Shown: piece by piece, positions 17,663-56,607 of the stretch | How positions within the stretch are numbered: the stretch's first letter is position 1 | Layout of the letters: every line of letters begins with the position of its first letter | NCBI GenBank assembly: GCA_951406725.2 | Contig: OX597834.1 | Coordinates: forward strand, 21,266,001 to 21,330,000 | Direction: 5' to 3' | From: Octopus vulgaris | Taxonomy: Eukaryota | DNA length: 64,000 nucleotides | Translations under genes and position numbers: made by a program | Notes under the pieces: generated by a model | What the model was told of the DNA's origin: nothing | Database searches by the model: none | Seen by the model: the letters and a program-made list of their open reading frames with translations, nothing else

Positions 17663-17705
<43 letters not shown>

Positions 17706-25721: not shown

Positions 25722-25768
25722 TTCTCTGCTGATGAAGAGAAATAACCCAGAAATCGTGATACACAGAT
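25722..25768 (+). ncRNA. Degenerate minimal type-I hammerhead ribozyme motif (Penelope-like)
   Basis: tctctg-CTGATGA-agagaaataaccca-GAAA-tcgtgaTA-cacaga: both core motifs present, short near-palindromic stem III, stem I 5/6 paired, stem II poorly paired. Confidence 0.4.
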
Positions 25769-26454
25769 ATTGTTTTGAGCTGAGTAGGGGGTGCTAGATT
25801 CCCTTATTCGGAAATATAAAGACACAGATTGTGTCGTATAGCCAGTTGGAGACAATGTCTCTTGGGGCTAAATTACAGCAACATTCGTCCTAAACCAGGG
25901 TTGCCATGTTATGTTGGCAAACGCACTTTACTACAAAGTACTGTTGCTGAATATCTCTCGTTGTGTGATTTAAAAATAGTAAATTTCTAAACCCCCAAAA
26001 GAATGAAAAACAAGGTTGACCTCAGCAGAATTTGAATGAAATTCCACTGAGCATTTTTCCCCAGCATGCTAACGATTCTGCCAGCGAGCCACCTTACCTA
26101 AAGGAAATATTAAAGTCTATAAATGTGTGTGTGTTTTAGGATGCATGGCTTAATGATTTGGGTGTTGCATGATTGTTGAGATCAGGGTTTCAATTCCTAG
26201 ACTGGTTGGTGTATTGTGCTCTTGAGCAAAACACTTCATTTTAAATTGCTCTGTGATCACTTTGACACATGATGTGTGGTACACCGTGACCATGTTCAGG
26301 TTACATCGATTTGATGGAGGGAGTGAGCTGATGCGTAGCACAAGCCTTCAATCACCAGAAACAAATCATTTGCGCAGGTCGTTTGGCAAAAGCTGACAGC
26401 TCAGACATAATTTTCAGTGGGAGAGTTCATCATGTGTGTGTGTGTGTGTGTGTG

Positions 26455-26577
26455 TGTTAAATAATATGAGACAACAAAGCCAAAGCTGTATGGAATTTAT
26501 AGGACATTTATAGGACATTTATAAATGTCCTATAATTTCCTCACAGCCATGGCTTTGTTGTCTCATTTTATTTAACA
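26455..26577. repeat. Spacerless imperfect palindrome, ~55-60 bp arms
   Basis: tgttaaataatatgagacaacaaagcc...ataggacattt|ataaatgtcctata...ggctttgttgtctcattttatttaaca. Confidence 0.85.
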
Positions 26578-26723
26578 TATACATGCTCACACAAGACCCA
26601 CATTAGACTCTTCACTCCTACTATTATCAAACTGAGAGTCTAACTATGGTCCTCCCATAGCACTTACATAGCCTTACCTGCCATCATGGGTCTTCTGGAT
26701 ACCAATACTTCTCATATATATAT

Positions 26724-26762
<39 letters not shown>

Positions 26763-26764
<2 letters not shown>

Positions 26765-26977
26765 ACGGGAAAGTTTACGAAAATAAACAAAAGACGAAGG
26801 TAGGTGGAGTACAAACAAACAAATGTATTATTATAGCGCTTAGGAATAGAAATAGAACAAGTCTTTTACGTCTCAAGCCTACGCTCTTCGACAGAAAGAT
26901 ACACAGAAAAAACACAAGGAGAGAGAAAAAATGCATGTAGGAGCTAACGATCTATCATATATATATATGTATATATA

Positions 26978-27010
<33 letters not shown>

Positions 27011-27106
27011 ACGGGAAGCTTTATGAAAATAAACAAAAGACGAAGGCAGGTGGAAAACAAACGAACAATTGTATTAGTATGGCGCCAGGAAATATAAATA
27101 AAACAA
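26763..27106 (-). mobile_element. Two partial tandem copies of a Penelope-like terminal repeat in (TA)n
   Basis: taacgggaa...gaaaataaacaaaagacgaagg(t/c)aggtgga occurs at ~26763 and ~27009. The first copy reads tcgaagagcgtaggcttgagacgt on the minus strand, resembling a decayed hammerhead core. Confidence 0.45.
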
Positions 27107-27279
27107 TATATATATATATATATATATATATCTGTAAAATAATATGTGACAATTATTCAATAGCCAAGATAAAACTCTGAGTTTCGGATGCCGAGGAGGA
27201 AATCCACAACACCATCTCTTCGGTTATCTGGCCATCTTATTGAGGTCTCTTTCTTTCTTTTGTTATCTTACTGTTTTTA

Positions 27280-27318
<39 letters not shown>

Positions 27319-30107
27319 ATATATAAAAGATCCTAATACACACACACATAGCAAGATTCTTTCCAAACCAACAGCCATCATGACTAATTGTTATCATAGA
27401 AGACGTCAATGCCATTGTCCGCATCTTTAGAACTGGGTTTCTTATTAGGTATTAAATGCGTTTGCATGAGGCGGTAGGGAGGGTAATTTTCTTCTGTGAA
27501 TAGTGAAAATACACACACAGATACACACACACACACACTCACACAGGGTAGTGTGCAGATTATCGCATACAACCACATGCCAACTCACACATCAGAACAC
27601 ACACAAACGCAAAAACATTTATATATATGTACACAAACTACACACACGCGCACACACACACACACACACACACACATTATCACACACATCCACAAGTGCC
27701 ACCATACCCACATACACTCACACTAATACACACACAAACAAATACCCATACACGCACACATATACACACACACACTAATACCCACATGCACACACACACA
27801 CACACACAGACTAATACCCATCACACACTAATACCCACACACACACAGACACATACACAGGCACACACACACTAATACCCTCACACACACTAGTATTCAT
27901 ACACACACACAGACTAATACCCACATACACACACACACACACAGACTAATACCCCCACACACTAATACCCACACACACAGACACATACACACACACACAC
28001 TAATACTCTCACACATACACACACACTAGTATTCATACACACACACTAATACCCACACACAGACTAATACCCACATACACACACACACCTGCTGTGCTAA
28101 TCCCTGTAACAGGGAGGACTCCAACTGAAATACTGCAGTCCCATCGATAAGCAGACGGCTCCGTTTTTCCGACAGAGATCTGGAGAACTTTTAAGAGTTT
28201 TATAGGACTGGAATGGCGTGGAGGGAGAGGATTAACACGCTATAGGTAGCAAAGGAAAGGAAGAGGGAGATTGATGGGTATTTTGGCAGTGTGCAGTCAA
28301 GCATGCAGGCTTGCACATATGTGCAAGCACATGCAAACACACAGACAGACACACACACGCACAGATTTTAATAAATATATTGATAGACACATTAACAACT
28401 AGAAGCACAAACACACACACACACACACATACACAAACTTTACCATTAATACACACATAGATGCATACATGCACATATGCACACAATCTCACAGAAACAC
28501 CCATAAACAGTTTCATAGACACAAGCATGCATACAAAGCCGCACATACATACACACACACACACTCATAGGTTCATAGACAAATGCACTAATACTCACAT
28601 ATACACATACATACACCCAGATTCACGCACTTATATGCAATACACATATATTCATGCATGTACATACATAGATACATAGACCCATACACACCCGTAAAGG
28701 AAAATACTCTCTCACACACAAACATAAAGTATACACATACACAAATGCATGCACGCACACATACATACACACTAAAACATACAATACACACATAATAATA
28801 ATAATAATGAAATTATTGCATACAGTGCTCACAAACAGAAAGCACATGCAAACACTTTCACATATGCACACATACACACACACACACACACGCACACATG
28901 AATACACTTGCACACATACATACACACACATACACTTATGATCACAAACATTCAAGTAGACATAGACACACATACACACACACACACTCACACATACATA
29001 TACGCTGTTGTCATATTCCTTCCATATTCCTGCACCAAAGTTACAGCAATGTTAAGAACCATCTTGGAGGTAGCGTTACCAAAAAATAGTGACTCACCTC
29101 TAAAGTTTCCTGAATGCATCTTTATATCGGATTATTGTTGTTGTTGTTGCTGGTGCTGTCTGCTACATTACATCTGTATGCATATATTTACATACATATA
29201 TATATATATATATACATACATGTTGTATTATATTTGATATACTTTTGGTAATCATAAATTCCATATCTGCAATCTACTGAAAATGGTAAATTCTCTGACA
29301 TTTTCAGGTACCGTTTCCTTTATGAATATGATATAACATAATATATATATATATATATACATGTGTGTATTGATGTGTGTGTGTGTGCGTATTAATGTAT
29401 AAGATATTTATACATCATTAAATTAAATAATATATATATATATATGTACACATGGGTGCATACATATATGTACCTGTGCATTTAGATGTGTGCATACACA
29501 CACACACACACACACACATACACAGAGAGAGGGAGGGGAAATGTTTTCAGTATATTTTGATGTTTAACTATACACACAACATATAATGCTGTATTCCTTA
29601 TTTTTTCTCATTTAAATACGTTCCAAATTTATATTAATGCCCCCGCCATTTTCTTTATCGTCTTCTTCCCTTAACTGTTTATTTTCATTATTTTTATAGC
29701 AATTATTAATACTGTTAGAAGCACAAGACATATTTATAAACTCCTACAAACCTAGTCCTGTCGCTGCCATCAGTGAGTTTTTGGGTTATGTGGAGGGCTT
29801 GAAATACTGAGAAACTTGATGAGTAAAGCCTGTAGGTGTAGGCGAGGCTGTGTGGTAGGAAGCTTGCTTCCCAACCACATGATTCCAGGTTCAGTCTCAC
29901 CGCATGGCACCTCAGGCTAGTATCTTCTACAATAGCCTCGGGTTGACCAAAGACTTGTGCTGAATATGCTCCTTTGTCACTCCCATTATAGCTTTGAAAA
30001 AATAATTGTAAGCATTGAACGGCACTCTTCAAAACTTGCACTAAGAATAAGGGCAAGGTTAAAACTACTACCGGCTTTTATAGCAAGTTGATGCAGGTAG
30101 TTTAACC

Positions 30108-30304
30108 CAGTGGTTTTCAACCAGGGTTCCGTGGAACCTTAGGGTTCCGCAAGAAGTTACAAAACTGCTAAAATCGGCGGTAATTTTTAATTCTCCTGTG
30201 CAGATATGTGAGCATAAGACTATTAAATTATTGCACAGGGATTCCTCGAGCCAGTAGAATGTTTCCTTGAGGTTCCGCTCCAGCAAAACGTTTGAAAAGC
30301 ACCG
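30108..30304. mobile_element. hAT (Charlie-type) MITE
   Basis: TIRs CAGTGGTTTTCAA / TTGAAAAGCACCG; perfect 8-bp TSD GTTTAACC at 30100-30107 and 30305-30312. Confidence 0.85.
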
Positions 30305-30599
30305 GTTTAACCCATCCAACTTTTAGTTCATGCAACTGAAAAAACTGCATTATTTATGGGATGACCCAATATTTCAACAGAAATATGCAAACAAAAGGGT
30401 TAATTAAGAATCGTTAAGTGGATCCTTCTCTGTCTTTTACAGAATGGCAAACATTTGAATCCGATTTTCTGGCTCCTTACCTACCAACTTAGAAGCTTCT
30501 TAAACCTTTTGATACTGACTTACCATAGTTCATCCCTGGTTCTAATACACAACCTTCCATCAGAATTTCCTTTTAATTTACTCGCACTCACACACACAC

Positions 30600-30858
30600 A
30601 CATACATTCCCACATGCAAATGTAGTCTCACACCCATTCCCACATGCACACATAATCATACACACGCACATTCCTACATTTACTCGCAGTTACACACACA
30701 TTCCCACATGCACATGTAGTCTCACACCCATTCCCACATGCACGCATAATCATACACACGCACATTCCTACATTTACTCGCAGTTACACACACATTCCCA
30801 CATGCACATGTAGTCTCACACCCATTCCTACATGCACATGTAATCACACATACACACA
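30600..30858. repeat. 94-bp CA-rich minisatellite, ~2.7 copies
   Basis: tgtagtctcacaccc at 30621, 30715 and 30809. Confidence 0.85.
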
Positions 30859-31903
30859 ACGCAAGTTTTGTTTTCTAAAGATAATATGATATTCCTGGAT
30901 TATTTCTGCTACATGATCAGACCTGTGTATATGTGTGTGAGTGTATGTGCATGCATTCATATGTGCATGCATGTGCATACGTGCAATAGTGGTGTGTGTG
31001 TGCTTATTATGATCTTTATGAATCCAGAGTAAACTAAATAAGACTTGAAACTATCTTGAAACTAATAAACCTTGAATATAACATCAAGGCAAGCCATCTA
31101 CTGCATTAGATGCTTATTTATCTGAGCAAATTAAGTAAATATAGATATATGGTCTGTCTGTATGTGTGTGTACTTATATGTCTTTAATGGTTGAACTCAA
31201 AGCAGAAAAGCTATAAACAAGAGCTCATGAATACTGGGTTAAAAAACAAAAGGAAAAGCCTTTGGATCGAAAAAGTCAAAGGCTGGTTGTAGGGCATCAC
31301 CAGTGTGTGTGTGTGTGTGTGTGTGTATGTATTTATGTATATATACTCTTTTACTCTTTTACTTGTTTCAGTCATTTGACACACATTTAGTCATTTGACA
31401 CACATTTAGTCATTTGACACACATTTAGTCGAGCAAATCGACCCCGGGACTTATTCTTTGTAAGCCCAGTACTTATTCTATCAGTCTCTTTTACCGAACC
31501 GCTAAGTGACGGGGACGTAAACACACCAGCATCGGTTGTCAAGCAATGCTAGGGGGACAAACACAGACACACACACACATACACACACATATAGGACCAG
31601 CCCAGGGGATGCTGCCATCTGGGTAAACTGAACTTCAGCATGTACAAGCTGACGGTTGTGGAAATTTCTTTGTCTTTGTCATGTCTTCCTTGGCACCCCC
31701 TAGCACATGGTACCCCAGATGACTACCCGAGTTTCCCAAGGTGCTATTTAATGACACTGAACCCAGAAACATGTGGTTCGGAAGCACACTTCTTACCATG
31801 CAGCCACCTCTGTGACTATGTATATATGCATAGCTGCAGCCTCAAAGCTGACACATATAAAAGAAAGAATATACATACCTATATACAATATATAGCATAC
31901 TCT

Positions 31904-31934
<31 letters not shown>

Positions 31935-32130
31935 GCTAGGGCTCCATTTGTATGTACGTATTTATGTGTGTGTGTATGTATATATAATATATACACACAC
32001 ATATATATATATATATATACATACATACATATATGAATATATATATATACATATATATATGTATGTATATATATATATGTATATATATATGTGTGTGTGT
32101 GTGTGTATATGAATATATATATCTATACAT

Positions 32131-32220
<90 letters not shown>

Positions 32221-32268
32221 TAGACTACTGATTTTCATTGCAGACAGTACTTTATGCATGAAACCCTT

Positions 32269-32309
<41 letters not shown>

Positions 32310-33094
32310 ATGCACACATGTGCATGTGTGAATGTATGCAGGAAGCTTGATAAAGTTGTTTGCTTACTGCATTATGACTATTTAGAAACCATTTATTAGT
32401 ATCAGGTACCAATAATACAATTTTTTTTTTCACGCACACACACCCCACTCCACCACCTCCCACTCCCAACCACCCCCAGCCCTTTCAACACATCCCCCCC
32501 ACCACCACCACCAAACACCACCGTCGTCTCCACTGCCCTCTTCCCCCCATCTCTCTACATAATCAAAACACATGCTTCCTTAATACTTTGTTCATATCGA
32601 TTCGAAATGATGGCGGCGGTGGTGATGGCAGCGACGGTGTGGCGGTTCTCCCCACCCCCGGCCACGTCGTGGTGGTGGTGGTGGTGGTAGTGGTGGTGGT
32701 GGGGTTGTCATGTCAGTCGGTCACGTGGAAAGTTTACTGTGACAGCGCAGTAACGTTGACCTTCTTCTTAAACTATCGATCGGATTGCCTTTTTTTTCGC
32801 AGCCGAAGAACGACAACGTCTTCCTCTCTGCCTTCTTTGCATCTTTCTTTCCTTCTTTCTTTCTTTTTTTCTTTCCTTTCTCTCTTTTATTGCATTTCGC
32901 CGTTTACATTTATCGATTGCCATGAAAGCGTGCATCTTGCTGTGCACTCTTAGAAATAAATAAAATAAAATAAAATAGAATAACATAGAAAATAAAATAA
33001 AAAAAGAACATAAATAAAAGACTGCACATGTTCCCAAACACTTTATGCTTTACTTTATTTACATATTTACTATTATTATTATTATTATTATTAT

Positions 33095-33430
33095 TAAATT
33101 CTACTGTGGTTGACTTTGCCTTTCATCTTTTTGGGGTCGATAATATGTGTACCAGTTGCGTACTGGAGTCAATGAAATTGATTAGACCCCTCTCCATAAT
33201 TACTTCCTTTATGCCAAAATTAGAAATTATTATTATTATTATTATCATTATTATTAAATTCCACTGTGGTTGACTTTGCCTTTCATCTTTTTGGGGGTCG
33301 ATAATATGTGTACCAGTTGCGTACTGGAGTCAATGAAATTGATTAGACCCCTCTCCATAATTACTTCCTTTATGCCAAAATTAGAAATTATTATTATTAT
33401 TATTATGATTATTATTATTATTATTATTGT
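33095..33430 (+). repeat. Tandem duplication (period 160 bp) of a SINE B 3' half plus (ATT)n
   Basis: Near-identical copies (ctgtggttgac at 33104 and 33264) sharing private variants. Confidence 0.9.
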
Positions 33431-33669
33431 TGTTGTTATTCTTAAGGTGGCAAGCTGGCAGAAATGTTAGCATGCCGGGCAAAATGCTTAGTGGTATTTC
33501 GTCTGTCTTTATGTCCTGAGTTCAAATTCCGTCGAGGTCAACTTTACCTTTCCTCCTTTTGGGGTTGATAAAATAAGTACCAGTTGGGCAAGTGTCTTTT
33601 ACTATAGCCTCAGGCTAACCAAAGCTTTGTGAGTGGATTTGGTAGACGGAAACTGAAAGAAGCCCATCG

Positions 33670-33705
<36 letters not shown>

Positions 33706-33881
33706 TATACATATGTATATGTTCATGTGTCTGTATTAGTCCCCATCACCATCGCTTGACAACTGATGTTGGTGTGTTTACGTCCCCTAATAAGTACTAG
33801 GCTTACAAAGAATAAGTCCTGGGGTCAATTTGCTACAGCATGGCCACAGTCAAATGACTGAAACAAATAAAAAGATAAAAG

Positions 33882-33928
<47 letters not shown>

Positions 33929-34131
33929 TTAGGATGTTCTGAAAAGTTCCTGGCTTTGAGTAAAAGAAAATACAAGAGGGTCATTCAACATATTCCCCTC
34001 ACAGATTCACACACTTATCACAGTGGTCCTTCAGTTTCTTCTAAGCCCTATAAAAGAACCCAGGATGTTGGGCCCCCAACTAGGCCTTTCGTGATACCCT
34101 TGAATCCAGGAATTTCTCGGCACTCCCTCGT
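33929..34131. mobile_element. mariner-type MITE
   Basis: Termini aggatgttctgaaaagttcctgg / ccaggaatttctcggcactccctcg-ta are imperfect inverted repeats. Confidence 0.7.
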
Positions 34132-36052
34132 ATGCACACATACCACAACACGCTTTGTTCAGTTTCTGTCAACCAAATCCACTCTCAGGGCTATAATAGA
34201 AGACAGACAGTGGGACTGAACCCAATCTGACATGGTTAGCAAGCAGGCTTCTTAACTACATGACCATAACAACACCAATCTTTATCTGTTTATTTATAAA
34301 TACCAATTGGCTATAACTGATGCATGGTAGATATTCTCCAGCTATTTAATGTCTAAAACAGGTGGCGCCCGTTTGCTAGAAGCCCCTGTAGTTGATATCT
34401 TAAACAGACAGGAACTGAAGGAAGCAGAAGTCCCTTTCCAATTTTCCAGTGTCTCGATTCTACCATGAAAGATCTGAGCTGACGAAAGAAGCTTGTATGT
34501 GGTCTTGCAACTTTCTAGTTATGGCTGTCAAATTTCTTTCAAATACACCCTGTCTTTTCAGAAAAGAAGATACTTTAGATAATGTGGTATGGAGTAGAAT
34601 ATTTCTGGCTAAAGAGGGCATGGTCATAGCTGGATTGCCTTTGATTATAGCCATAGGTTTGCTCGGAGTGATCAGAGCTGACCTTGGGTCAAATATCAAC
34701 AACAGCTACAAATAAAATTGATATGAGTTGTGGAAGAAGACTCTATGTGATCACTCAGATTGCTAGAAATAGTGATTAAGCTTCTTTTTAATCATAGGAT
34801 ACCACCTATGGGATAAAACTTAATGAAAAGACAGCATAGTTTGTCATGTGGAGAAGGAAAGAAATGTTAATGTTTTGGACGTAGGCTCTTTGTCAATGTA
34901 GAGAGGAGAGGTAGTAAAAAGGTAGAAAATTATGTGTTGTTATGAAAGTGTTATGGTTATGATGGGTGAAGGAAATGGGTAGGTGAGTATATGGCTTTAA
35001 AGTAGAGGAGAGAAATGAATTGTGGGTAGAAATGTTATTCAGGTACGAAAGTAAGTGTAAGCAGTTGCAAAGTTAGTGTCTATGTTGGTCAACCTGAGTA
35101 GGCTTTATAGTTTGTATGGAAGTGTAAACGGTTGGTCAAGAGAGGTGTGTGTGAGAGAGAGAGAGAGAGACCTTATGCATGAAAGGAAGGAATGATATGG
35201 AAGAATATCAGTCTGAAGGGAGAGAGTGAGCTTAGAAGAAGAAAAATAGCTGCGTTTGTGAAGAAGTTTGATGAAAGAAGAACTATGAGGCTTGAACAAA
35301 CTACAGAGAGAAAACCTGCCAGTGGTTGTAGAAGTGACTCATGGAGTTGAAATGAGCGTGCAAAAGGTTCACGAGGCCCAGGTTGAGATTAGTGCGACAT
35401 ACAACAAACAAGCGCTCACTGAGTTGACCTTTAAAATGACATCTTGTTTCAACTCTTTCCAAAGTATCGTAAAGATGGTATTTTATGTTCTAGAATTACT
35501 AGAGGCATAAGTGAAACGGTCAGTGATATCTGTAAGAGCGATTTAAGATCAATCACAGATACGATGTTGCAAATAAAATGACAAATGTTACAAGGACACT
35601 GGTAGCAGCTGGACACAGGTCTCTCTCTCTCTCTTTCTTTTCTGCTCGCTTTTCTTTTCTTTTCTTTCATTTTATTTTTTACTTTTTATTTTTTTTTTAC
35701 TAAATTGCAAAAATATATTGATTTTTTTTTTGTTTGATGATTAAATTAAACTGAAATGGTTTGGATGGCTTCTGAAAGAAATTTCAGAATTCAATATATG
35801 TCGTCTTTGCCTTTCATTCTTTCAGGGGTCAATTAAATAAGTACCAGTTACGCACTGTGGGTCAATGTAATTGACTGAATCCCCTAACCCATGCTTCCCT
35901 CGTGGCAAAAATTTGAAATCATCATCATCATCATTATTATTATTATTGTTGTTGTTGTTGTTAGTGGCATTTCTTCTGCTTCTTCCCGTTTTACATTCAA
36001 ATGCCGCCGAGGTCAACTTCCCTTCCATACTTCCAGGGTCAATAAAATAAGT

Positions 36053-36468
36053 ACCTATTTCTTTACTACCCACAAGGGGCTGAACACGGAGGGGACAAAC
36101 CAGGAGAAACAAACTGATTAAGTCGATTACATCGACCCCAGTACGTAACTGGTACTTAATTTATTGACCCCCGAAAGGATGAAAGGCAAAGTCGACCTCG
36201 GCGAAATTTGAACCCAGAACGTAACAGCAGACGAAATACCTATTTCTTTATTACCTACAAGGGGCTAAACACAGAGGGGACAAACCACGACAGACAAACG
36301 GATTAAGTCGATTACATCGACCCCAGTACGTAACTGGTACTTAATTTATCGACCCCAAAAGGATGAAAGGCAAAGTCGACCTCGGCGGAATTTGAACTCA
36401 GAACGTAACGGCAGACGAAATACTGCTAAGCATTTCACCCAGCGTACAAACGCTTCTGCCAGCTCGCC
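36053..36468 (-). mobile_element. SINE family B with tandemly duplicated body (~186 bp), nested in an oppositely oriented older B copy
   Basis: cctatttcttta...gacgaaatac occurs twice, with the head at 36468. Plus-strand B sequence flanks it at 35960-36053 and 36470-36545. Confidence 0.8.
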
Positions 36469-37580
36469 AACAACTGAGGTCGATGTAACTGACTTTCCCC
36501 CTCCCCTCAAAAACTGCTGGTTCTCCGCCAGAATTTGAAAACATTATTACTTTTATTATTATTGTTGTTGTTCTTATTTTTATTTTGGTAAGAGGAAGTG
36601 TTTTATGAATGATTCGTATCTTTATTATGTTTCATAGATAATAAAAAAAAAAATTCCAGCAAGAAATACATAGAGTATTATTTTTATTATTTGTAATACC
36701 AAACTATGTTACTGTTGATTGATTCAGACACATACAACGCACACACACACACACACATATATACACGCAAACACATAGACATGCAAATATACACAAAGGC
36801 TCACACAAATACGTACATGCACACACATATATAGATATACATATATACATACATATTTGCATTTATAGGCATATATACACACACACATATATATATACAT
36901 GTATACACATACACGCATATAAATATACAATACATATATATACATATATACACATGTATAGACACATATATAAAAACACAAAGACACACACACATACATG
37001 CGCAAATACATACACACACACAGACATATACATATATATATATATATATATATGTATACACATACATATATACATACATATTTGCATATATACACATATA
37101 TACATACACAGACATACATGCACATAAATATAAAATACACATATATTTAAATATACATATATATATACACACACAAATACACAGATACATATATATACAC
37201 ATATAGATATATGTTTGCATATATACACATATATACACACATATATGTGCACATATATACACATACATACACACACAAATGCACACGCATACTCACACAC
37301 ATATATATACACATACATATATACATACATATATACATACATATATACATATATACACACATATATACATATATACACATAACATACAGGCACATAAATA
37401 TACAATACACACTCACACACACACACACATATATACATATATATACACATATATAAAAACACACACACACACACACATATATATACACATATATATAAAA
37501 ACACACACACACACACATACGTGATTCTAAGAATGTGCAATTTGATTTTCGCAAATAAACTTCTTTCAATTGCTATTCAA

Positions 37581-37694
37581 TTCTTTCCTTTTTCTCTCTT
37601 TTACAGGTAAGTGCTTCCTTTCTCAGCCAGTCTTTGACAACAACAACAGCACCAAAACCATATTCACTACATTTATGTGTTTCACTATGTAAGT
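37581..37694 (+). promoter_or_regulatory. Candidate recursive splice site (3'ss fused to 5'ss) with downstream RS-exon donor
   Basis: 22 consecutive pyrimidines (37581-37602), then ACAG|GTAAGT (junction 37606/37607). No AG between 37532 and 37604. Second GTAAGT at 37689-37694. Confidence 0.55.
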
Positions 37695-38282
37695 CTAGAA
37701 CATATTTTTATTATTCCTCGGCTGATCGATGGCACATATTAATGCTGCAAAATACCTTTTTCTCAATAGTCAAGTTAGTACAAGACTGAACACTCTCGGC
37801 TAAACAGACAGCTTTCCAAGACAACCCTTTTGCTGCCAAAATGTCTAAGAATATATCTGGTTCTCTGATAAAGTTTTCTAAAAACTTACTCTTTTTCTTT
37901 GTTTTGTTCTCTTTTTTTCTTTTGATAATTGCTTGGTGACCTCACTGGTGCCAGAGAGGCATAAAAAGCACCCTGGCACACTCTGTTCTATGAAGTGGTT
38001 GGCATTAGGAAGGGTGGCCAGCTGTAGAACCAAGCTTGGTGCAGTCCTCTGGCTTGCTGTGGTTCCTGTTAAAACTATACAACCCATACTATCTTGGAGA
38101 GTAGACATTAAGTTATGATGACGATGATGATGATAACAATCATTATGATGATGATGATGATGTTGAAGGTGGTTGATTTCAATGACGATGATGATGATGA
38201 TGATGACGATGAGGACAATGACAATGAAGATGATGATGATGATGATGATGATGATTATGATGATGATGATGACAATGATAAC

Positions 38283-38320
<38 letters not shown>

Positions 38321-38878
38321 CGACATTGATAATGATGATGATGATGAATTTCAGTGTATGGAGAAGGATGCAGTGTTCATAAGTTTTGTAAGCTTGTTGA
38401 GACTGGGTGCAATTGGTGGTGTTTACAAAATAAAGAAGTCCTGGGGTTGATTCATTCAACTAAAAATTCTTCCAGGCAATGCCCCAGTATGGCCACAGTC
38501 AAATGATTAAAACAAATAGCGGATAAAACATACAGTTGTGTAGCCAGAGTGAATGTAGGGTGGGGTGCATAGGAGAATGCTGTCCTTCTTGGGTAATGCT
38601 TTTATGAGAGAAGCCCTTCTGGGTTTGCCATATAAGCATGATATAGGGGACACACACCATTGCTGTGGACATGGCCACCATGGAGTCTAAACAATTAAAT
38701 TACCTGCCCTCTTTCAGAAAAGAAATCAATCTCTGCACACAGCGCATTTTTCAAAGAGTGCCCAGCCATGGCTCTCCTGTTAATTTATTATTACTTTTTA
38801 CCTGGTCACAATACATCTTGGACTATAGTGTCAAGTGTGTTTGATTTTTTCGTTTTTTTTTATATTTGGACAAACAAT

Positions 38879-39156
38879 GGTGCAGGAGTGGCTGTGTGGT
38901 AAGTAGTTTGCTAACCAGCCACATGGTTCTGGGTTCAGTCCCACTACGTGGCATCTTGGGCAAGTGTCCTCTGCTATAGCCCCAGGCCGACCAAAGCCTT
39001 GTGAGTGGATTTGGTAAACGGAAACTGAAAGAAGCCCATCAAAAGAGACCGATAGAATAAGTACTGGGCTTACAAAGAATAAGTCCCGGGGTCGATTTGC
39101 TCGACTAAAGGCGGTGCTCCAGTATGGCCGCAGTCAAATGACTGAAACAAGTAAAA
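38879..39156 (+). mobile_element. SINE family A with central deletion
   Basis: Head and tail intact, but gaagcccatc joins directly to aaaagagaccgatag. Confidence 0.85.
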
Positions 39157-39221
39157 AATGGTTATGCACACTTAAAGTGAGAGTTATGGTTGCTATTTCA
39201 TGTTACTGTGAAGTCCTCATT

Positions 39222-40675
39222 GAGCAAACTCTAGCCCTGTAATCAAAGGCATTCCAGCCATGACTCTCCTGTGTGTTTTGTAGTCACAGTGTACCTTGGA
39301 CTACAATGTCAAATGTGTTCTTTCTTTAAAAAAAGATAGTTGTATGCAAACCCTATCCCTGTAATCAAAGGCACTCCAACTATGACTCTCCTGTGTGTTT
39401 TGTAGTCACAGTGTACCTTGGACTACGGTGTCAAATGTGTTCTTTCTTTAAAAAAAGATAGTTGTATGCAAACCCTAACCCTGTAATCAAAGGCATTCCA
39501 GCCATGACTCTCCTGTGTGTTTTGTAGTCACGGTGTACCTTGGACTACAGTGTCAAATGTGTTCTTTCTTTAAAAAAAGATAGTCGTATGCAAACGCTAA
39601 CCCTGTAATCAAAGGCATTCCAGCCATGACTCTCCTGTGTGTTTTATAGTCACAGTGTACCTTGGACTACAGTGTCAAATGTGTTCTTTCTTTAAAAAAA
39701 GATAGTTGTATGCAAAACCTAACCCTGTAATCAAAGGCACTCCAGCCATGACTCTCCTGTGTGTTTTGTAGTCACTGTGTACCTTGGACTACAGTGTCAA
39801 ATGTGTTCTTTCTTTAAAAAAGATAGTTGTATGTAAACGCTAACCCTGTAATCAAAGGCACTCCAGCCATGACTCTCCTGTGTGTTTTGTAGTCACAGTG
39901 TACCTTGGCCTACAGTATCAAATGTGTTCTTTCTTTAAAAAAGATAGTTGTATGCAAAACCTAACCCTGTAATCAAAGGCACTCCAGCCATGACTCTCCT
40001 GTGTGTTTTGTAGTCACTGTGTACCTTGGACTACAGTGTCAAATGTGTTCTTTCTTTAAAAAAAGATAGTTGTATGTAAACGCTAACCCTGTAATCAAAG
40101 GCATTCCAGCCATGACTCTCCTGTGTGTTTTGTAGTCACAGTGTACCTTGGACTACAGTGTCAAATGTGTTCTTTCTTTAAAAAAAGATAATTGTATGCA
40201 AAATCTAACCCTGTAATCAAAGGCACTCCAGCCATGACTCTCCTGTGTGTTTTGTAGTCACTGTGTACCTTGGACTACAGTGTCAAATGTGTTCTTTCTT
40301 TAAAAAAAGATAGTTGTATGCAAACGCTAACCCTGTAATCAAAGGCACTCCAGCCATGACTCTCCTGTGTGTTTTGTAGTCACAGTGTACCTTGGACTAC
40401 AGTGTCAAATGTGTTCTTTCTTTAAAAAAAAGATAGTTGTATGCAAACGCTAACCCTGTAATCAAAGGCATTCCAGCCATGACTCCCCTGTGTGTTTTGT
40501 AGTCACAGTGTACCTTGGACTACGGTATCAAATGTGTTCTTTCTTTAAAAAAAGATAGTTGTATGCAAACCCTAACCCTGTAATCAAAGGCATTCCAGCC
40601 ATGACTCCCCTGTGTGTTTTGTAGTCACAGTGTACCTTGGACTACTTTATCAAATGTGCTCTTTCTGTGAAAAAA
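39222..40675. repeat. Tandem satellite, 12 copies of a 121-123 bp unit
   Basis: aatcaaaggc at 39241, 39363, 39485, 39607, 39729, 39850, 39971, 40093, 40215, 40337, 40460 and 40582. Confidence 0.97.
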
Positions 40676-41334
40676 AGTAGTAGGGTGTATTTAGAGAGAG
40701 ATTGAGCTGATTTTACATGTCTTTTTTAGTCCAGATCACCATTGAGCAAATTTCTAATCAAAAGCTTTCCAGATATGACCAACCCGTCTTAGTTTTTATG
40801 TTGTTTACTTTTGGCTAAGCCATACATCTTCGAGATCCCATTATCCAACACATCTTTCTTTTTCCTTTGTTTTTTTTTCTTATATGACAACACGGTGTGA
40901 TCTGAGGGTGATTTAGCTGCTATATTTTGCAAATTATGCATACTCCCTCTACCTAATCAAGTGTCACCGTGTGCACTGTTTCAAATCTCCACAAACTGAA
41001 TCTCCAATCTAATTTTAATTCCTTCTGCCACACTCACCCACCCCTCCTACCGGAACTCATTTCATCACTTCTCTTATTATAATCACGGATAACCAGCCAC
41101 TAGTTTCATGACTACGAATGAACTAAACTGCTTTTATCAGACCAAGTCTGGCAGTGTTAAATAAACAGCTTTGGGCAAGAGGAACCGACTGTAGCCATCA
41201 TTGTGTCAAAGCTAATAGTTTATTAGTTCAATAAAGTGTCAAGACTTTCACTCGACAATCCAACATTGTCCAACCATTCAAATACGACCCACCCCCTTCT
41301 TTGGTGCTTTTTCTTCTTCATCTTCAGACTCTTA

Positions 41335-42015
41335 AATCTCCTTCTGTCTCTTCCATCTCTCTTTTTCTCTCTACCTCTCTCTTTCCATCCGTCCACCCTC
41401 TTTACACCCTTGTCCTTCTCCCTCACTCTTTTGCCCTCTCTTTCCTAGCTCTCTTTTTCTCTCTTTCTCTGTCCCTCTCTCTCTCACCCTCTCTACTCTT
41501 CTCTCTCTCCCTCTCTCTCTCCCATCTTTCTCTTTTTGTCTCTACCTTCCTCTCTATCCCTCCCGCTTTACTCTCTATTCCTCTCTCTCCTCTTTTCCCT
41601 CTCCCTCTCTCTTTACTCTTTCATCTCTCTCCCTCCTTCTCTGCTCATTTCTCTCTCTCCCTCTCTTTCTATCTCTCCCTGTCTCTCTCCCCTTCTCTCT
41701 ATCTCCCTCTCTTTTCCTTCTCCTGTTCTCTCCCTCCCTCTCCTACTCTCTCCCTCCCTCTATACTTTTTCGTCTGTCTCCCTCTCTATTCACTTCTCTC
41801 CTTCCTTCTCTGCCCATTTCTCTCTCTCTTCCTCTTTCTCTCTCCTCTCTCTGTCTCCCTCTTTTTTCCCTCTCCTACTCTCTCCCTCTCTTGCTATCTC
41901 TCTCGCTTCCTCTCTCTCCCTGTCTCTTTTTCCTTTTCCTTCTCCCTCCCTACCTCCTACCCATCTCTCTCACTTTCACTCTCTCGCTCACCCTCACCCA
42001 ACCTCTCCCTCTGTC
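41335..42015. repeat. ~680-bp polypyrimidine (CT-rich) tract
   Basis: Direct reading; a similar tract lies at ~56820-57500. Confidence 0.95.
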
Positions 42016-42295
42016 TGTTGCTAATCACTCTTCTTTGCAATCTAACTTAATTGCTTTTTCACATAATGGTCAAAACAGTAAAGCTATTGGATTACCACCC
42101 AACACCCCACTAACTACACCCAACACCCCACCAACTATATTTCCAACTCTTTTTGTTCTTGTTCTTGTTTACCTCTTGGTTAGCCTTGATCTGAGCATCT
42201 TAACTTTTATTATTATCATCACCATCATCATCATCATCATCATCATTCTACTCTTTCTTTTTATAAGGCAGTGGTATCTCGACAGGTGCTGAGAT

Positions 42296-42553
42296 CACTG
42301 GTTCTCAACTGAGGTCCAGATGACCCTTGGAGGTCCATGCAAGGTTTTGCAGTTAAAATTTGTATAATAAATTGTTTATACTTCTACAATACACAAAACA
42401 GTTTAACAATTTTTTTTTGTATATAATTCCTAAGAATATTTGATTATAAAAATATAATAGGGTTTTTATAAAACTTCAAATGGTTATTGAGGTTCATCTA
42501 AATAAAAGAGAAATCACAGGGGTCCATAGACAAAAAATAGTTGAAAAACCTTG
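42296..42553. mobile_element. hAT-type MITE (diverged)
   Basis: TIRs CACTGGTTCTCAACT / AGTTGAAAAACCTTG; 8-bp flanks GCTGAGAT / GCCTAGAT (6/8). Confidence 0.7.
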
Positions 42554-43074
42554 GCCTAGATGATGGGGGTGTGATAGCAATCAGTGAGACCAGGATATCT
42601 GAGCTACATTCATTTGCATTTGTTCTCGAGAACTATGGGGTGTACTCATCTTGTGGCTAGTCAGAATCAGTTGGCAGAGTGGTATTATAATGGTTCATCA
42701 TTGTTTAATGTCCTCCTTCCATGCTGGCATGGGTTGGATGGTTTGATAGGAACTGGACAGGCAGAAGACTGCATCATACTTCTGTGTCTGTTTTGGCTGC
42801 ATGCCCTTCCTAACACCAACTATTCCATAGAGTGGGCTGAGTACTTTTTGCATGGCACCAGCACAGACAAGGTCAGTTTTGACATGGTTTTTACAACAAG
42901 ATGCCCTTCCAAGTGCCAACCACTTTGCAGTATGGACTGAATGGTTTTTATATGGCACCAGCACTGTCAGGGTCCCCAAGTATCTTACAAGACAAGTTAC
43001 TTGGAATGGTAATGTTGAGGATAAAAGGCTGGCTCCTGAATTATGAGCTCTTGCTACTCAGATGATAATGATGA

Positions 43075-43625
43075 TAATTTGGTTGTGCTCAATGTGAATG
43101 GTAGCAAAGGAAGTTCCCTGATTGGAGCAGCTTATATTTCTTCAGGCATCTAGAAGCTTTCTCAGGAATACTCTGCTCTTTAGTACTCATTGGGGACTGG
43201 AATTGCATGTTAGATGCATGGTGGGATTGTTTAGCATTTGCACACAGGAGAAGTCAAACAGAACTACTCAGTATCAAGTGGATTTCCTTCTGTCAGCCTG
43301 AAATTGCAGGCTGTTTTATTGTGCTTAGTGGCTGGCAAAAAAGAGGTTTTGAGTGTGTGGACAAAATTGAAAGGTCTGAAGACAAGAAACACTCCATTTC
43401 TGTGAAGCCTGCTTGGATACGTTTAGACAGAGATACTCTCTTTGGTGGGCAATTTTATTGTGCTTAGAGGCTTGCACAAAAGAGGTTGTGATTGTGTGGA
43501 TATGATTGAAAGAGCTGAAGACAGAAACCTTCCATATCAGCAAAGCCCACTTAGAAAAGTTGGTGAGAGGAGAAACGGAGAGATGATATAGGGCACTTGC
43601 AGGGTTTGATGTTGGGTTTAGTAGG
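43075..43625 (+). pseudogene. Decayed Tx1/L1-type LINE endonuclease (APE) fragment with internal ~137-bp duplication
   Basis: Manual translation gives LVVLNVNGSKG... and YFFRHLEAFSGILCSLVLIGDWNCMLDAWWD, matching the APE GD(F/W)N motif. ttttattgtgcttag...ctgaagaca is repeated at ~43314 and ~43453. Confidence 0.65.
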
Positions 43626-43878
43626 GTTCTTTCATTGGCCCCAGAATCAAATTCTTTTCTCTGAGAACTACATCATATAATTTGTGTGCTGTAGATGTTT
43701 TTCTTTTTTGCTATTTCATTCTTTTTATTCTCATTTTCCTCATCCAGTTGCTGCGTAAACTGCCCTCCTTTTTTGAAACCTGTCTCTGTAATGTCCTCTT
43801 TATCAGTTGTCCTGGTGACAAATAAACTAAATTATCATCATCATCATCATCACCATCATCACTGTCAGTTTCACTCAC

Positions 43879-43911
<33 letters not shown>

Positions 43912-43973
43912 TATCACTGCCGTACTCTCATCATCATCTCAGTACTCTCATCATCATCATCATTATCATCATC

Positions 43974-44005
<32 letters not shown>

Positions 44006-44250
44006 CATCATCATCATTATTATTCCCTTTGTAAGCGTCATTTGAGGTTTCCAAGAAAAATTTCTAGGTCCATCTTCAAAGTCTTTGATCTGTTTTTGAA
44101 GCGCCAGAGTCAAATTATATTTTTATCTGCAAAGGGAAGAACACAAGACACACTGTACAACGACCACCACCAACACCACCACCACTACCATCGCATCCCA
44201 CTCTACTTCTCTTGCCATCATCCTCATCATCATCATCACTATCAACATCG

Positions 44251-44288
<38 letters not shown>

Positions 44289-44773
44289 CACACTGCTCCT
44301 TATCCTGTCTCATCCAACTAGTTCAAATAACTGGATTTGAAGAATGCAGTTGGTGCTTTGGAGCTTTGCGGCTCTGTGGCGGTGCACAGAAAATGTCCAT
44401 GCATGAAATTATGTGCAGCAGCATCCACTGGTGTGAGTGTGTGCATGTGTGCATACATTCAGGCATACATGCTTAAATGCAATCCAGGAGTTTTGCCTAC
44501 AGTATTTATGTGAAATGCACATGCGTTGCATTGCATATGCGAACACATGCATGCGTGTGCACATACATAAGTCAGAACATAGATTCAATCATGTTATGCC
44601 TTGTTCAAAAATACACACAGACACACATAATTGTCTATCTACATATATATCTATCTGTCTATCTATCTATCTATCGATCTATCTATCTATCTATCTGTCT
44701 GTCTGTCTCTCTGTCTATCTACAAGCATACATCCATTCATATTTATTCAGATATGTTTGCTTGTATGTGTGTA

Positions 44774-44809
<36 letters not shown>

Positions 44810-44813
44810 TGTA

Positions 44814-44844
<31 letters not shown>

Positions 44845-45567
44845 CCATACATGCTCACTGGTACATATGTGTGTGTGTGTATGTACATGTATACCCATAT
44901 ATGTGTGTACATATATATATATGTATGTATGTAAATATGTGTACATATATGTGTGTGTGTGTGTATGAATATACATATACATATATGCATACACATACAC
45001 ACACATGTATGTATTCATGCATACATTCATACAAACATAAATATATTCATACATAAGCATATGCTTATGTATACAGATTTCTGCATGAGTAAAAATGACT
45101 GATTCTGTACATATGCAGGCATATGCACGCACGCACACATACACACACACACACACAGCACACGCACTATAAACATTTTGCATGTGCTTTCTGTCATATG
45201 TTTGTTATTAATCATAGATTTCATTCTACTTGGGACTGCAAATCTATGTAATTTCGTAGATGTATGTGTGTTTTTGCCCAAATCTGTTTGTGTTCATAGC
45301 TATTTTAATGTGTATGTGTGCACGTGTGTGTCTATGTGTGTGTGTGTGCGCGCGTCTATGTGTTTGTATGCATTCCTTCAGGTTTGTATTCAAGTGTTTT
45401 TTATTTACATTTATCCATGTGCACATGCGTGCACGTCTATGTGTGTTCATGTGTGTATATACACATTCACACAAACACATATTCATACATGCATACATAT
45501 ATCTCTATCTATCTGTCTTTCACTATATATATATTTATATATGTATGTATGTGTGTGTGTGTATGTG

Positions 45568-45598
<31 letters not shown>

Positions 45599-45638
45599 CA
45601 TCATCATCATCATCGTTTAGCATACGTTTTCCATGCTA

Positions 45639-45872
<234 letters not shown>

Positions 45873-46292
45873 GGCGCAGGAGTGGCTGTGTGGTAAGTAG
45901 CCTGTCTACCAACCACATGGTTCCGGGTTCAGTCCCACTGTGTGGCACCTTGGGCAAGTGTCTTCTACTATAGCCTCGGGCCGACCAATGCCTTGTGAGT
46001 GGATTTGGTAGACGGAAACTGAAAGAAGCCCGTCGTATATATGTATATATATATATATGTATGCGTGTGTGTGTTTGTGTGTCTGTGTTTGTCCCCATAG
46101 CATTGCTTGACAACAGATGCTGGTGTGTTTGTGTCCCCGTCACTTAGCGGTTCGGCAAAAGAGACCGATAGAATAAGTACTGGGCTTACAATAGAATAAG
46201 TTCCGGGGTCGAGTTGCTCGATTAAAGGCGGTGCTCCAGCATGGCCGCAGTCAAATGACTGAAACAAGTAAAAGAGTAAAGAGTAAAGAGAG
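45873..46292 (+). mobile_element. Best-preserved SINE family A copy (tRNA-derived head with A/B boxes, CORE-like segment, internal TA/TG microsatellite)
   Basis: GGCGCAGGAGTGGCTGTGTGG (A-box-like)...GGTTCAGTCCC (B-box-like)...GGCACCTTGGGCAAGTGTCTT (CORE-like)...gactgaaacaagtaaaagagtaaagag tail. CpGs are retained. Confidence 0.9.
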
Positions 46293-46650
46293 TATACATA
46301 TATATATACATACACACATAGACAAATTAATTACTGGCAGATGTAAGTAAGCACATATTTACATTCCACAAAGCTTACATGCATGTAAGCATGCATACAT
46401 GCATGCAAACAGACATGTGAGCACACACAGATTTGCATGTAAGCAAGGAACCAGATGACTTAACTTTGCTCTGTTTTTCATCCTTTCTCTCTCTCTCTCT
46501 CTCTCTCTCTACGCCACCTCTCTTTCTCTCTATCTGTCTGTTTGTCTGTCTATCTTACTTTCTTTCCTTTTCCCCATCTTTTGTAATTTATGTGAAAGAA
46601 ACTGACTACTGGAAGCAATATCAACAACAACAACAATAGTAATGATAATG

Positions 46651-46686
<36 letters not shown>

Positions 46687-46770
46687 GTAATAATAATGAT
46701 AATAATAATAATAATATGTATGGAAAACACTCAGCGAGAAACGGAAGAAAATTTGAAGAAAGAAGGAAAA

Positions 46771-46816
<46 letters not shown>

Positions 46817-46972
46817 CTAGAGAAAAAATACCAATATATCAGTCTTTGATAAACTAGTGTGACACAGAAACCGAATGTAAAGAATGACTGACAGTTTTTT
46901 TTTTTTTTTCTGAAGAATTTCTTTTGAATGGGATATTGTGTTGTTAAACTACTGTTGGTGAAATAGCCCTCA

Positions 46973-47004
<32 letters not shown>

Positions 47005-47280
47005 ATGTGTGGTGGGTTTGCTGGTTTTGTGGTAGGGCCGTTGGTGGTGGTGGTGGGGACATAGGAGATGAAGGGTTTGCTTTTGTGAAGTATTCTGCCT
47101 TGAAACTTGTGGAAATGTATACCAGTTTGGGTCGATTTTCCCCTCCTAGCAAGCATATATGTACATGTGTGTGTAGGTTTGCATGAGTGTGTGTGTGTAT
47201 ACATGCATATATATGTATACATACACACATGTATATGTACAGCTATATCTACATATATATATATATAGATATATAGCTAC

Positions 47281-47320
<40 letters not shown>

Positions 47321-47697
47321 GTATATATATATATATGTATATATATATGCATATACATATATATGTATATATATATATATGTGTGTGTATGAAATCTGAG
47401 ATTGCGTTGCTGTTACTCAGAGTTTCATGTTTCCACACTTCCCTTGTGATGAAAAGTAGTAATGCAATTTACAACAATGGAGTATCTCAAATTTTAATTG
47501 TGTATGTAAGTCTATATATTTATATATATGTGTGTGTGTGTATATATATATACACACACACACGCACTCACATACACAAACATGTGTGTTTATATAACAT
47601 AATTGCCCCATAGTCTTGCTCAACGATGCACTCTTCTCAACTCATGCACACTCACACACACACATACACACATACACATACTGCATACAGAATCTTG

Positions 47698-47758
<61 letters not shown>

Positions 47759-47769
47759 ACACATAAACA

Positions 47770-47919
47770 CAGTCATGGCCAAAAGTTTGGATCCTTTCTT
47801 TAAAAATTAGAATTATTTTTCCCAAGTACAATTCAATTCAAATTTATACAACGTATTTAAGCATTTAATATAAAAATTCTAATTTTCAGACCTATGTTCC
47901 AAACTTTTGGCCATAACTG
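47770..47919. mobile_element. Tc1-type MITE (150 bp)
   Basis: TIRs CAGTCATGGCCAAAAGTTTGGA / TCCAAACTTTTGGCCATAACTG (21/22). Flanks read CA rather than TA. Confidence 0.8.
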
Positions 47920-47931
47920 CATATACATACT

Positions 47932-47981
<50 letters not shown>

Positions 47982-48072
47982 AAAAAGTAGGATAAAATCT
48001 TTACAAGAATTTATCAAGTAGTCAGCGTGGAAACCTCATAAGGGAAAAATTTATTATCATTACTTTAAATAA

Positions 48073-48343
48073 ATTTATTTATATTAAGGGCATTACTACA
48101 CATAAACGCCTCATGCTATTAGGGACTCTTTAAGTCAAAACTACCATAATAAATACACAGTGAACCTAACACGAGGGAATGCAACCTTTGAAGCCAATCC
48201 TTAAAAATAGATTCTCTTTTTAAGGGTTGGCTTCAAAGGTTGCATTCCCTCGCGTTCGGTACTCTGTGTATTTATTATTGTAGTTTTGACTTTAAGAGTC
48301 CCAAATAGCCTAATGGATTTCTGTGTAGTAATGCCCTTAATAA

Positions 48344-48349
<6 letters not shown>
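48073..48349. repeat. Long imperfect inverted repeat (~135-bp arms, ~9-nt loop)
   Basis: cgagggaatgcaacctttgaagccaatccttaaaaa|tagattctc|tttttaagggttggcttcaaaggttgcattccctcg; pairing extends out to attaagggcattactacac / gtgtagtaatgcccttaat. Confidence 0.9.
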
Positions 48350-48400
<51 letters not shown>

Positions 48401-49382: not shown

Positions 49383-49434
<52 letters not shown>

Positions 49435-50054: not shown

Positions 50055-50110
<56 letters not shown>

Positions 50111-50547: not shown

Positions 50548-50619
<72 letters not shown>

Positions 50620-51281: not shown

Positions 51282-51315
<34 letters not shown>

Positions 51316-51566: not shown

Positions 51567-51622
<56 letters not shown>

Positions 51623-54205: not shown

Positions 54206-54277
<72 letters not shown>

Positions 54278-54643: not shown

Positions 54644-54706
<63 letters not shown>

Positions 54707-54926: not shown

Positions 54927-54981
<55 letters not shown>

Positions 54982-56576: not shown

Positions 56577-56607
<31 letters not shown>

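What the first reader, a model, noticed from the sequence alone, without database searches (positions are those of the whole stretch)
37532..37694. Consensus recursive-splicing (ratchet) site with an 82-nt RS-exon in otherwise repetitive DNA
Seen: a short unique island right after a long (CA/TA)n tract. It has a ~73-nt AG-free zone, 22 straight pyrimidines, ACAG directly followed by a perfect GTAAGT, and a second perfect GTAAGT 82 nt downstream (37689). Established: this AG|GT juxtaposition plus a downstream cryptic donor is the recursive splice site/RS-exon architecture of very long Drosophila and vertebrate neuronal introns. Inference: the window lies inside a giant + strand intron that is removed stepwise, and inclusion of the 82-nt exon would shift frame. 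I am not aware of recursive splicing being characterised in cephalopods.
Basis: partly seen in the sequence, partly recalled or inferred. Interest (0 to 1): 0.72.

Follow-up and report, generated by a model that had tools for sequence, protein, structure and literature searches.

The report
Octopus neuron-navigator recursive splice site
This back-to-back "intron end / intron start" signal is one of three spaced along a predicted 390,000-base intron of an octopus nerve-guidance gene (neuron navigator), and it likely lets the cell cut that intron out in steps as fruit flies do, a process I found in no paper on molluscs and that still needs RNA proof.

Summary
The motif is exactly as described and single-copy. 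It lies on the sense strand of an octopus neuron navigator (NAV2/sickie-like) gene. A homology-defined 390,394-nt intron runs from a conserved alternative first coding exon to the first CH-domain exon. Two more co-oriented CAG|GTAAG sites with short downstream donors share that intron, giving segments of 93, 69, 82 and 147 kb. Genome-wide, Y15NCAG|GTAAGT occurs 55 times against about 8-16 in controls. These sites are enriched for branch-point motifs, TT at -6/-5 and a second donor 20-120 nt downstream, and this held in 20 held-out sites. The junction is unchanged in a related organism about 10% diverged in the flanks. Including the 82-nt piece would put a stop in the CH exon. Verdict: a likely fly-type ratchet point with a cryptic exon, a new member of a known kind. 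The defining RNA tests (junction reads, saw-tooth coverage, lariats) could not be run. Earlier unchecked notes of this scan reported similar sites on other octopus DNA.

The parts
1..64000 (+). Interior of the inferred 390,394-nt phase-0 intron of a neuron navigator gene (G000:C21:21141603-21531996); the window is C21:21266001-21330000
   Evidence: the intron is inferred from homology to other mollusc NAV proteins, not from octopus RNA
36732..37520 (.). (CA/TA)n microsatellite tract directly upstream
37532..37604 (+). 73-nt AG-free zone
37576..37581 (+). Candidate branch-point element TTCAAT (A at -28/-27); weak match to consensus, inferred
   Evidence: no difference listed here in organism G; fly branch points lie at -36 to -21 (10.1101/006163)
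37581..37602 (+). 22-nt polypyrimidine tract with TT at -6/-5
   Evidence: the three differences in organism G are pyrimidine-to-pyrimidine
37603..37606 (+). Acceptor ACAG (junction 37606|37607)
   Evidence: organism G differs only at the free -4 position
37607..37612 (+). Ratchet donor GTAAGT; would be regenerated as CAG|GTAAGT (9 of 9 consensus) after joining to the upstream first exon
37607..37688 (+). 82-nt candidate cryptic RS-exon, A/C-rich and frame-shifting
   Evidence: 1 listed substitution plus a 6-nt repeat insertion in organism G
37689..37694 (+). RS-exon donor TAT|GTAAGT (7 of 9 consensus), weaker than the ratchet donor
   Evidence: GTAAGT intact in organism F

Best explanation
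The site is likely a recursive splice site (ratchet point) that helps remove a predicted 390-kb intron of the octopus neuron navigator gene in steps. Shown in sequence: a strong acceptor fused to a consensus donor, a weaker donor 82 nt downstream, sense orientation in the NAV locus, two similar co-oriented sites 69 kb before and 82 kb after, and a genome-wide excess of such sites. Inferred, by analogy to Drosophila: the 82-nt piece is recognised as an exon and the upstream exon is spliced to 37607. That recreates CAG|GTAAGT, which outcompetes TAT|GTAAGT, so the 82 nt leave with the next segment and nothing appears in the mRNA. Use of the second donor would give a frameshift and a stop 57 nt into the first CH exon, and probably decay of the transcript.
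For: Host gene: the giant exon at C21:22026178 is 100% identical to a protein named neuron navigator 2-like of Octopus sinensis, and CH-domain exons map in order on + from 21531997. A 21-codon exon at 21141540 matches the N-terminus of gastropod NAV P0017 (71%, E 5e-7), chiton P0026 (43%, E 0.002) and unnamed P0065 (52%, E 2e-5). In all three proteins that N-terminus is followed directly by the CH start, and the octopus exon ends in CAG|GTAAGT in phase 0. Locus: in 1.854 Mb scanned, a simple pattern (at least 14 of 19 pyrimidines, CAG, GTAAG) has 9 hits on + and 1 on -; the top 8 of 4557 YAGGT sites by my ad hoc score are all +, and ours ranks second. Genome: 55 hits against 1 for the reversed pattern, 16 for a purine-tract control (p 4e-6) and 8.2 expected from four GTRRAT controls. 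A second donor lies at +20..+120 in 11 of 30 sites against 26 of 720 background windows, and in 5 of 20 held-out sites against 10 of 480. CTAAY lies at -45..-20 in 10 of 50 sites against 192 of 4750 windows, and AG is depleted there. TT at -6/-5 is found in 47 of 55 against 18 of 41 controls; the fly figure is 196 of 197. The 50 sites share no downstream sequence family. Conservation: organism G has 1 listed substitution in 37604-37694 against 11 in 110 nt downstream (p 0.013) and 6 in 75 nt upstream (p 0.047); organism F has 1 in 58 against 17 in 200 (p 0.08).
Against: The intron rests on homology. The octopus database models seen begin downstream of the site (P0054 at about C21:21455755; P0001 and the other full-length cluster members seen at 22017539), and no cephalopod protein joining the 21-codon exon to the CH exon turned up. 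No + site scores 9.5 or more in 498 kb of downstream introns, which include ones of about 117 and 172 kb, so long introns here do not all need such sites. The site at 21234631 (score 9.9) barely beats the best antisense site in the intron (9.7), and a fourth + site with a poor donor (21530102) scores 11.7. About 8-16 of the 55 genome-wide hits are expected without function. The branch point is a weak match. The cryptic exon looks better conserved than fly RS-exons are said to be (PMC8605326). The organism G evidence is one contig of depth 3.3 with one of its 8 differences unlisted, and several flank differences are shared by F and G, so the two are not independent.
Confidence: 0.8

Rival explanations
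1. It is an expressed or regulated 82-nt cassette (poison or 5' UTR) exon that happens to begin with GTAAGT. It would be included in some NAV transcripts to trigger decay, or serve as a non-coding exon of a far-upstream promoter.
For: The exon body is more conserved than its flanks in organisms G and F, and the one indel is 6 nt. It has an A/C-rich body and two of three frames are open. Mammalian RS-exons are mostly expressed (PMC8605326 introduction).
Against: GTAAGT is over-represented several-fold right after strong acceptors compared with near-identical hexamers, which ordinary exons do not explain. The regenerated donor (9 of 9) beats the exon's own donor (7 of 9). The ACA repeat explains a 6-nt indel. 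This reading and the best one can both hold in part.
Confidence: 0.1
2. It is only an ordinary donor (CAG|GTAAGT) ending an unannotated exon whose 3' end is pyrimidine-rich, or ending a separate non-coding transcript.
For: CAG|GTAAGT is a perfect donor, and purine-tract controls give 16 such sites genome-wide.
Against: The upstream sequence behaves as an acceptor: AG-free zone, TT at -6/-5, tract changes only between pyrimidines and a free -4 position. Branch motifs and AG depletion hold across the class. The upstream 75 nt are as diverged as intron while the downstream 82 nt are conserved.
Confidence: 0.04
3. It is a chance motif, or a decoy with no splicing role, in intergenic DNA upstream of the annotated NAV models.
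For: Controls predict about 8-16 such motifs per genome. The database models seen start downstream of the site. Window-only statistics are weak.
Against: A conserved NAV first coding exon with an in-phase perfect donor lies 162 kb upstream. The locus has 9 hits on + and 1 on -. The site and exon are conserved above the flanks. All 10 chain sites have TT-N-CAG.
Confidence: 0.06

Closest known systems
Drosophila intronic ratchet points with cryptic RS-exons (Ubx, kuz, Bx, luna; Duff et al. 10.1101/006163, whole text seen; Joseph et al. PMC8605326, abstract and introduction seen; Pai et al. PMC6110457, passages seen)
   Same: (Y)nNCAG|GTAAGT consensus, TT at -6/-5, a short out-of-frame cryptic exon with a weaker downstream donor, several co-oriented sites in one long first intron of a neural gene, and a conserved junction.
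   Different: Scale: fly recursive introns are 11-133 kb with segments of 2.6-63.6 kb and 1-6 sites; here the intron is 390 kb with segments of 69-147 kb, and a chain of 10 co-oriented sites spans 1.18 Mb. The exon body seems conserved here but is poorly conserved in flies. No RNA validation here.
Vertebrate recursive splice sites / RS-exons (Sibley 2015; not held; known through PMC8605326 and PMC5126111 part 1, otherwise recalled)
   Same: Very long introns of neuronal genes, competition between the regenerated donor and the RS-exon donor, and frameshifting on inclusion.
   Different: Only nine fully suppressed sites were noted in mammals, and vertebrate long introns show little sense-strand motif enrichment (ratio 1.5 or less; PMC2773006 Table 2). 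This genome shows an excess of about 40-47 sites under one strict pattern.
Computational RP-site enrichment in insect and sea urchin long introns (Shepard et al. PMC2773006, passages seen)
   Same: Motif excess on the sense strand of long introns in invertebrates outside Drosophila, without RNA validation in that study.
   Different: No mollusc was among its five invertebrates; it did not examine downstream cryptic-exon donors in the passages I saw.

Membership tests
Fly-type intronic ratchet point | Juxtaposed strong acceptor and donor (Y)nNCAG|GTAAGT | tested here: met
   second-best score of 4557 YAGGT sites in 1.854 Mb
Fly-type intronic ratchet point | TT at -6/-5 | tested here: met
   This site, all 10 chain sites, and 47 of 55 genome-wide against 18 of 41 controls
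Fly-type intronic ratchet point | Lies on the sense strand inside a long intron | tested here: met
   390,394-nt intron inferred by homology; not confirmed by octopus transcripts
Fly-type intronic ratchet point | Short cryptic exon closed by a weaker downstream donor | tested here: met
   82 nt, 7 of 9 against 9 of 9 consensus; class enrichment 16 of 50 against 36 of 1200 windows
Fly-type intronic ratchet point | Junction more conserved than flanking intron | tested here: met
   Organism G, one contig of depth 3.3, p 0.013 and 0.047; organism F covers only the exon's 3' part, p 0.08
Fly-type intronic ratchet point | Branch point at -36 to -21 | tested here: inconclusive
   Only TTCAAT at this site; CTAAY enriched across the class, 10 of 50
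Fly-type intronic ratchet point | Cryptic exon body poorly conserved | tested here: inconclusive
   The body looks more conserved than the flanks at about 10% divergence; too little data to compare with flies
Fly-type intronic ratchet point | Upstream-exon-to-site junction reads, saw-tooth coverage, segment lariats | not testable with these tools
   Only assembled contigs were available
Fly-type intronic ratchet point | Cryptic exon absent from mature mRNA and included when the ratchet donor is mutated | not testable with these tools
   Needs poly(A) RNA and mutagenesis
Neuron navigator (NAV/sickie/UNC-53) host gene | N-terminal CH domain and sequence homology to NAV proteins | tested here: met
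   the C-terminal AAA part lies beyond the fetched region and was seen only as Pfam labels on P0001

The most novel reading that the evidence does not exclude
Octopus uses fly-type recursive splicing at megabase scale. One neuron navigator transcription unit would start more than 1.3 Mb upstream of its CH exons and be processed through at least ten ratchet points 69-278 kb apart, one pair born by duplication. Its conserved cryptic exons would act as poison switches that depend on which first exon is used.
Probability: 0.25. Interest if true: 0.72.

Novelty: new member of a known kind. Interest (0 to 1): 0.52.

Why it matters
In the papers I saw, recursive splicing has RNA support in flies and vertebrates, and a lungfish preprint found that giant genomes do not depend on it widely. 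A mollusc with fly-like sites and cryptic exons, but segments longer than any fly segment, would point to an old bilaterian mechanism that vertebrates mostly reduced. It would also show how large-brained cephalopods express very long neuronal genes. The work gives exact, cheap targets: three junctions in one intron and 55 strict sites genome-wide. It also indicates that the octopus database models seen split and truncate the NAV gene.

Tried and rejected
RNA: no RNA holder was listed; X11, X12 and X14 are only guessed to be RNA. Their contigs lie unspliced at depth 2-5 over 37521-37648 (X14), 37628-37807 (X11) and 37695-37953 (X12). No joint or loose end at 37607 or 37688 was among the rows shown (942 and 30 loose-end rows not shown). 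Extra depth over the ACA repeat came from unrelated short matches. None of this counts for or against. The organism F contig does not reach the junction. Transposon origin of the motif class was rejected: no shared family beyond the motif among the first 30 loci plus the window (four flank hits away from or overlapping the motif between single pairs) and none downstream among 50. ORF and exon heuristics with recalled residue and splice-site frequencies found no coding exon in the window. No first exon upstream of the far chain was found in C21:20.176-21.14 Mb. No cephalopod protein joining the 21-codon exon to the CH exon was found. Clustering: 6 pairs lie within 500 kb against 0.53 expected, 5 on the same strand; with GTAAGN, 10 of 12 pairs within 1 Mb are same-strand (p 0.019). 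The 41 control sites also gave 2 same-strand pairs against 0.3-0.6 expected, so I give this little weight. A Pfam scan did not run. Sibley 2015, Joseph 2018 and Burnette 2005 were not held. Literature searches: recursive splicing with octopus 0, mollusc 0, sickie 0, cephalopod 1, in references only, phyla 8, listings only. Searches listed no paper with the recursive term. I did not read the fly ratchet-point supplement tables, so whether fly sickie has such sites is open.

Full report
Observation. The island has one match in the 2.8-Gb genome, and the window is G000:C21:21266001-21330000. Within the window alone the motif is only mildly surprising.

Is the motif class real? Y15NCAG|GTAAGT occurs 55 times in the genome, 27 on + and 28 on -, against 1 for the reversed pattern. 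The reversed pattern is a weak control because it removes the acceptor, so I ran three fairer ones. The same acceptor followed by GTAAAT, GTGAAT, GTAGAT or GTGGAT gives 41 in all, which predicts 8.2 after scaling by local hexamer frequency. Acceptor plus 27 non-donor hexamers gives 323, about 12 each. A purine tract before CAGGTAAGT gives 16. So about 40-47 of the 55 are in excess, and GTAAG followed by A, C or G adds 31 more sites. I examined flanks of 50 of the other 54 sites: the first 30 listed, then the next 20 outside this locus as a held-out set. A donor lies 20-120 nt downstream in 11 of 30 against 26 of 720 background windows, and in 5 of 20 against 10 of 480. CTAAY lies at -45..-20 in 6 of 30 and 4 of 20 against about 4%, and AG is depleted there. 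With unique-sequence background only, the donor result holds (11 of 30 against 14 of 375). TT at -6/-5, nearly invariant in fly ratchet points (196 of 197), is found in 47 of 55 against 18 of 41 controls; the control tally and three of the 55 were read by eye from the tables. The sites share no repeat family.

Host gene. I fetched 1.854 Mb including the window. A large + strand exon at C21:22026178 encodes a stretch 100% identical to a protein named neuron navigator 2-like of Octopus sinensis. Mollusc NAV proteins place CH-domain exons on + at 21531997, 21581222, 21698786 and 21752560, and a further exon at 21925591. These proteins have several different N-termini joined to the same CH start. 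One of them is found in a gastropod (P0017), a chiton (P0026) and an unnamed contig (P0065), and it matches a 21-codon exon at 21141540 (71% identity, E 5e-7). That exon ends in CAG|GTAAGT in phase 0, and the CH exon starts in phase 0 after a normal acceptor; joined, they read through without a stop. This defines a 390,394-nt intron containing the whole window on its sense strand. The intron is inferred: the octopus database models I saw start downstream of the site and split the gene, and no cephalopod protein with this junction was found.

Layout in the intron. Three CAG|GTAAG sites lie on + at 21234631, 21303607 (this finding) and 21385420, each with a second donor 65, 82 and 64 nt downstream. 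They cut the intron into 93, 69, 82 and 147 kb. An exon at 21458011-171, used by database model P0054, halves the last piece into 73 and 74 kb. All three cryptic exons are out of frame: two contain stops, and ours gives a stop 57 nt into the CH exon. Seven more + sites lie upstream at 20201819, 20286283, 20432091, 20525552, 20652318, 20807193 and 20956399, six of them with a donor 54-76 nt on. I found no first exon for them, so they belong either to a much longer NAV unit or to another + transcript. Over the whole region a simple pattern gives 9 hits on + and 1 on -, and 12 of the top 13 scores are + (the score is my own). Against this, the first of the three sites barely exceeds the best antisense score, and downstream introns of about 117 and 172 kb have no comparable site.

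Conservation. A contig of organism G spans 37529-37694. Its listed differences are two upstream, three pyrimidine swaps in the tract, the free -4 base and one in the exon, plus a 6-nt repeat insertion; CAG|GTAAGT is unchanged. One further difference is unlisted and the depth is 3.3. Downstream flank differs at 11 of 110 positions. Organism F keeps the second GTAAGT and differs at 1 of 58 positions in the exon's 3' part and donor, against 17 of 200 downstream. The pattern fits selection on an acceptor, both donors and, less expectedly, the exon body.

Mechanism. By the Drosophila model (PMC8605326), the cryptic exon is defined and the upstream exon is spliced to 37607; the recreated donor then competes with the exon's own donor. 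Here the recreated donor would be CAG|GTAAGT (9 of 9 consensus) against TAT|GTAAGT (7 of 9), so skipping is predicted. The motifs, strand, spacing, enrichment and conservation are shown. Transcription through the site, splicing into it and donor choice are inferred; the available contigs could not test them. The main rival is a regulated poison exon, which can coexist with the ratchet role.

Comparison and novelty. The site meets the sequence-level defining features of fly ratchet points that I could test; the branch point and exon-body criteria were inconclusive, and the RNA-level features were untestable. It differs in scale: fly segments are at most 63.6 kb. Motif enrichment was already reported computationally for insects and sea urchin but not molluscs (PMC2773006), and a lungfish preprint found no general reliance on fixed sites. 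Searches for recursive splicing with octopus, mollusc, cephalopod and sickie found no study; most subscription papers are outside that library. Unchecked notes of this scan describe similar candidate sites elsewhere in this genome and in another octopus genome. They are not independent support, and none names NAV. Verdict: a likely genuine ratchet point, new member of a known kind, best explanation 0.8, interest 0.52.

Noticed in passing
L195:5819 and L204:283 (C21:20201819, 20286283): Two ratchet-like modules 84 kb apart are paralogous: 77% identical over about 220 nt, with both junctions and both downstream CAG|GTATGT donors kept while the exon middle diverged. No third copy was found in the genome.
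   Followed up: partly
L038:8631-8701 (C21:21234631): The cryptic exon's own donor is preceded by CCTAAT and a pyrimidine tract, so it looks like a second, tandem acceptor|donor 65 nt after the first.
   Followed up: no
L074:8011-8171 (C21:21458011): A 161-nt exon with strong splice sites and a late ATG in frame with the CH exon; used in database model P0054. Probably another alternative first or 5' exon; it would stop the frame if placed after the 21-codon exon.
   Followed up: partly
C21:21531997-22028522 (L082, L087, L098, L104, L141, L150, L151): The octopus database NAV models seen are split into a short CH-only piece and a CH-less remainder, but the genome holds the CH exons in order upstream of the rest, implying a gene of at least 0.89 Mb.
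   Followed up: partly
L082:102 (C21:21530102): A strong acceptor followed by GTATTT, 1.9 kb before the first CH exon; role unknown.
   Followed up: no
L192:3487-3860 (about C21:20715500): A coding-like, charged-residue-rich stretch split across two frames on +, with no obvious splice sites; possibly a pseudogene fragment.
   Followed up: no
window 39224-40681: Tandem array of about 12 copies of a 122-nt unit at 95% identity.
   Followed up: no
window 33067-33417: A 161-nt tandem duplication at 97% identity.
   Followed up: no
L187:4126-5364 (-), L055, L139, L205: Open frames resembling non-LTR retrotransposon endonuclease or reverse transcriptase pieces (recalled resemblance, not tested).
   Followed up: no
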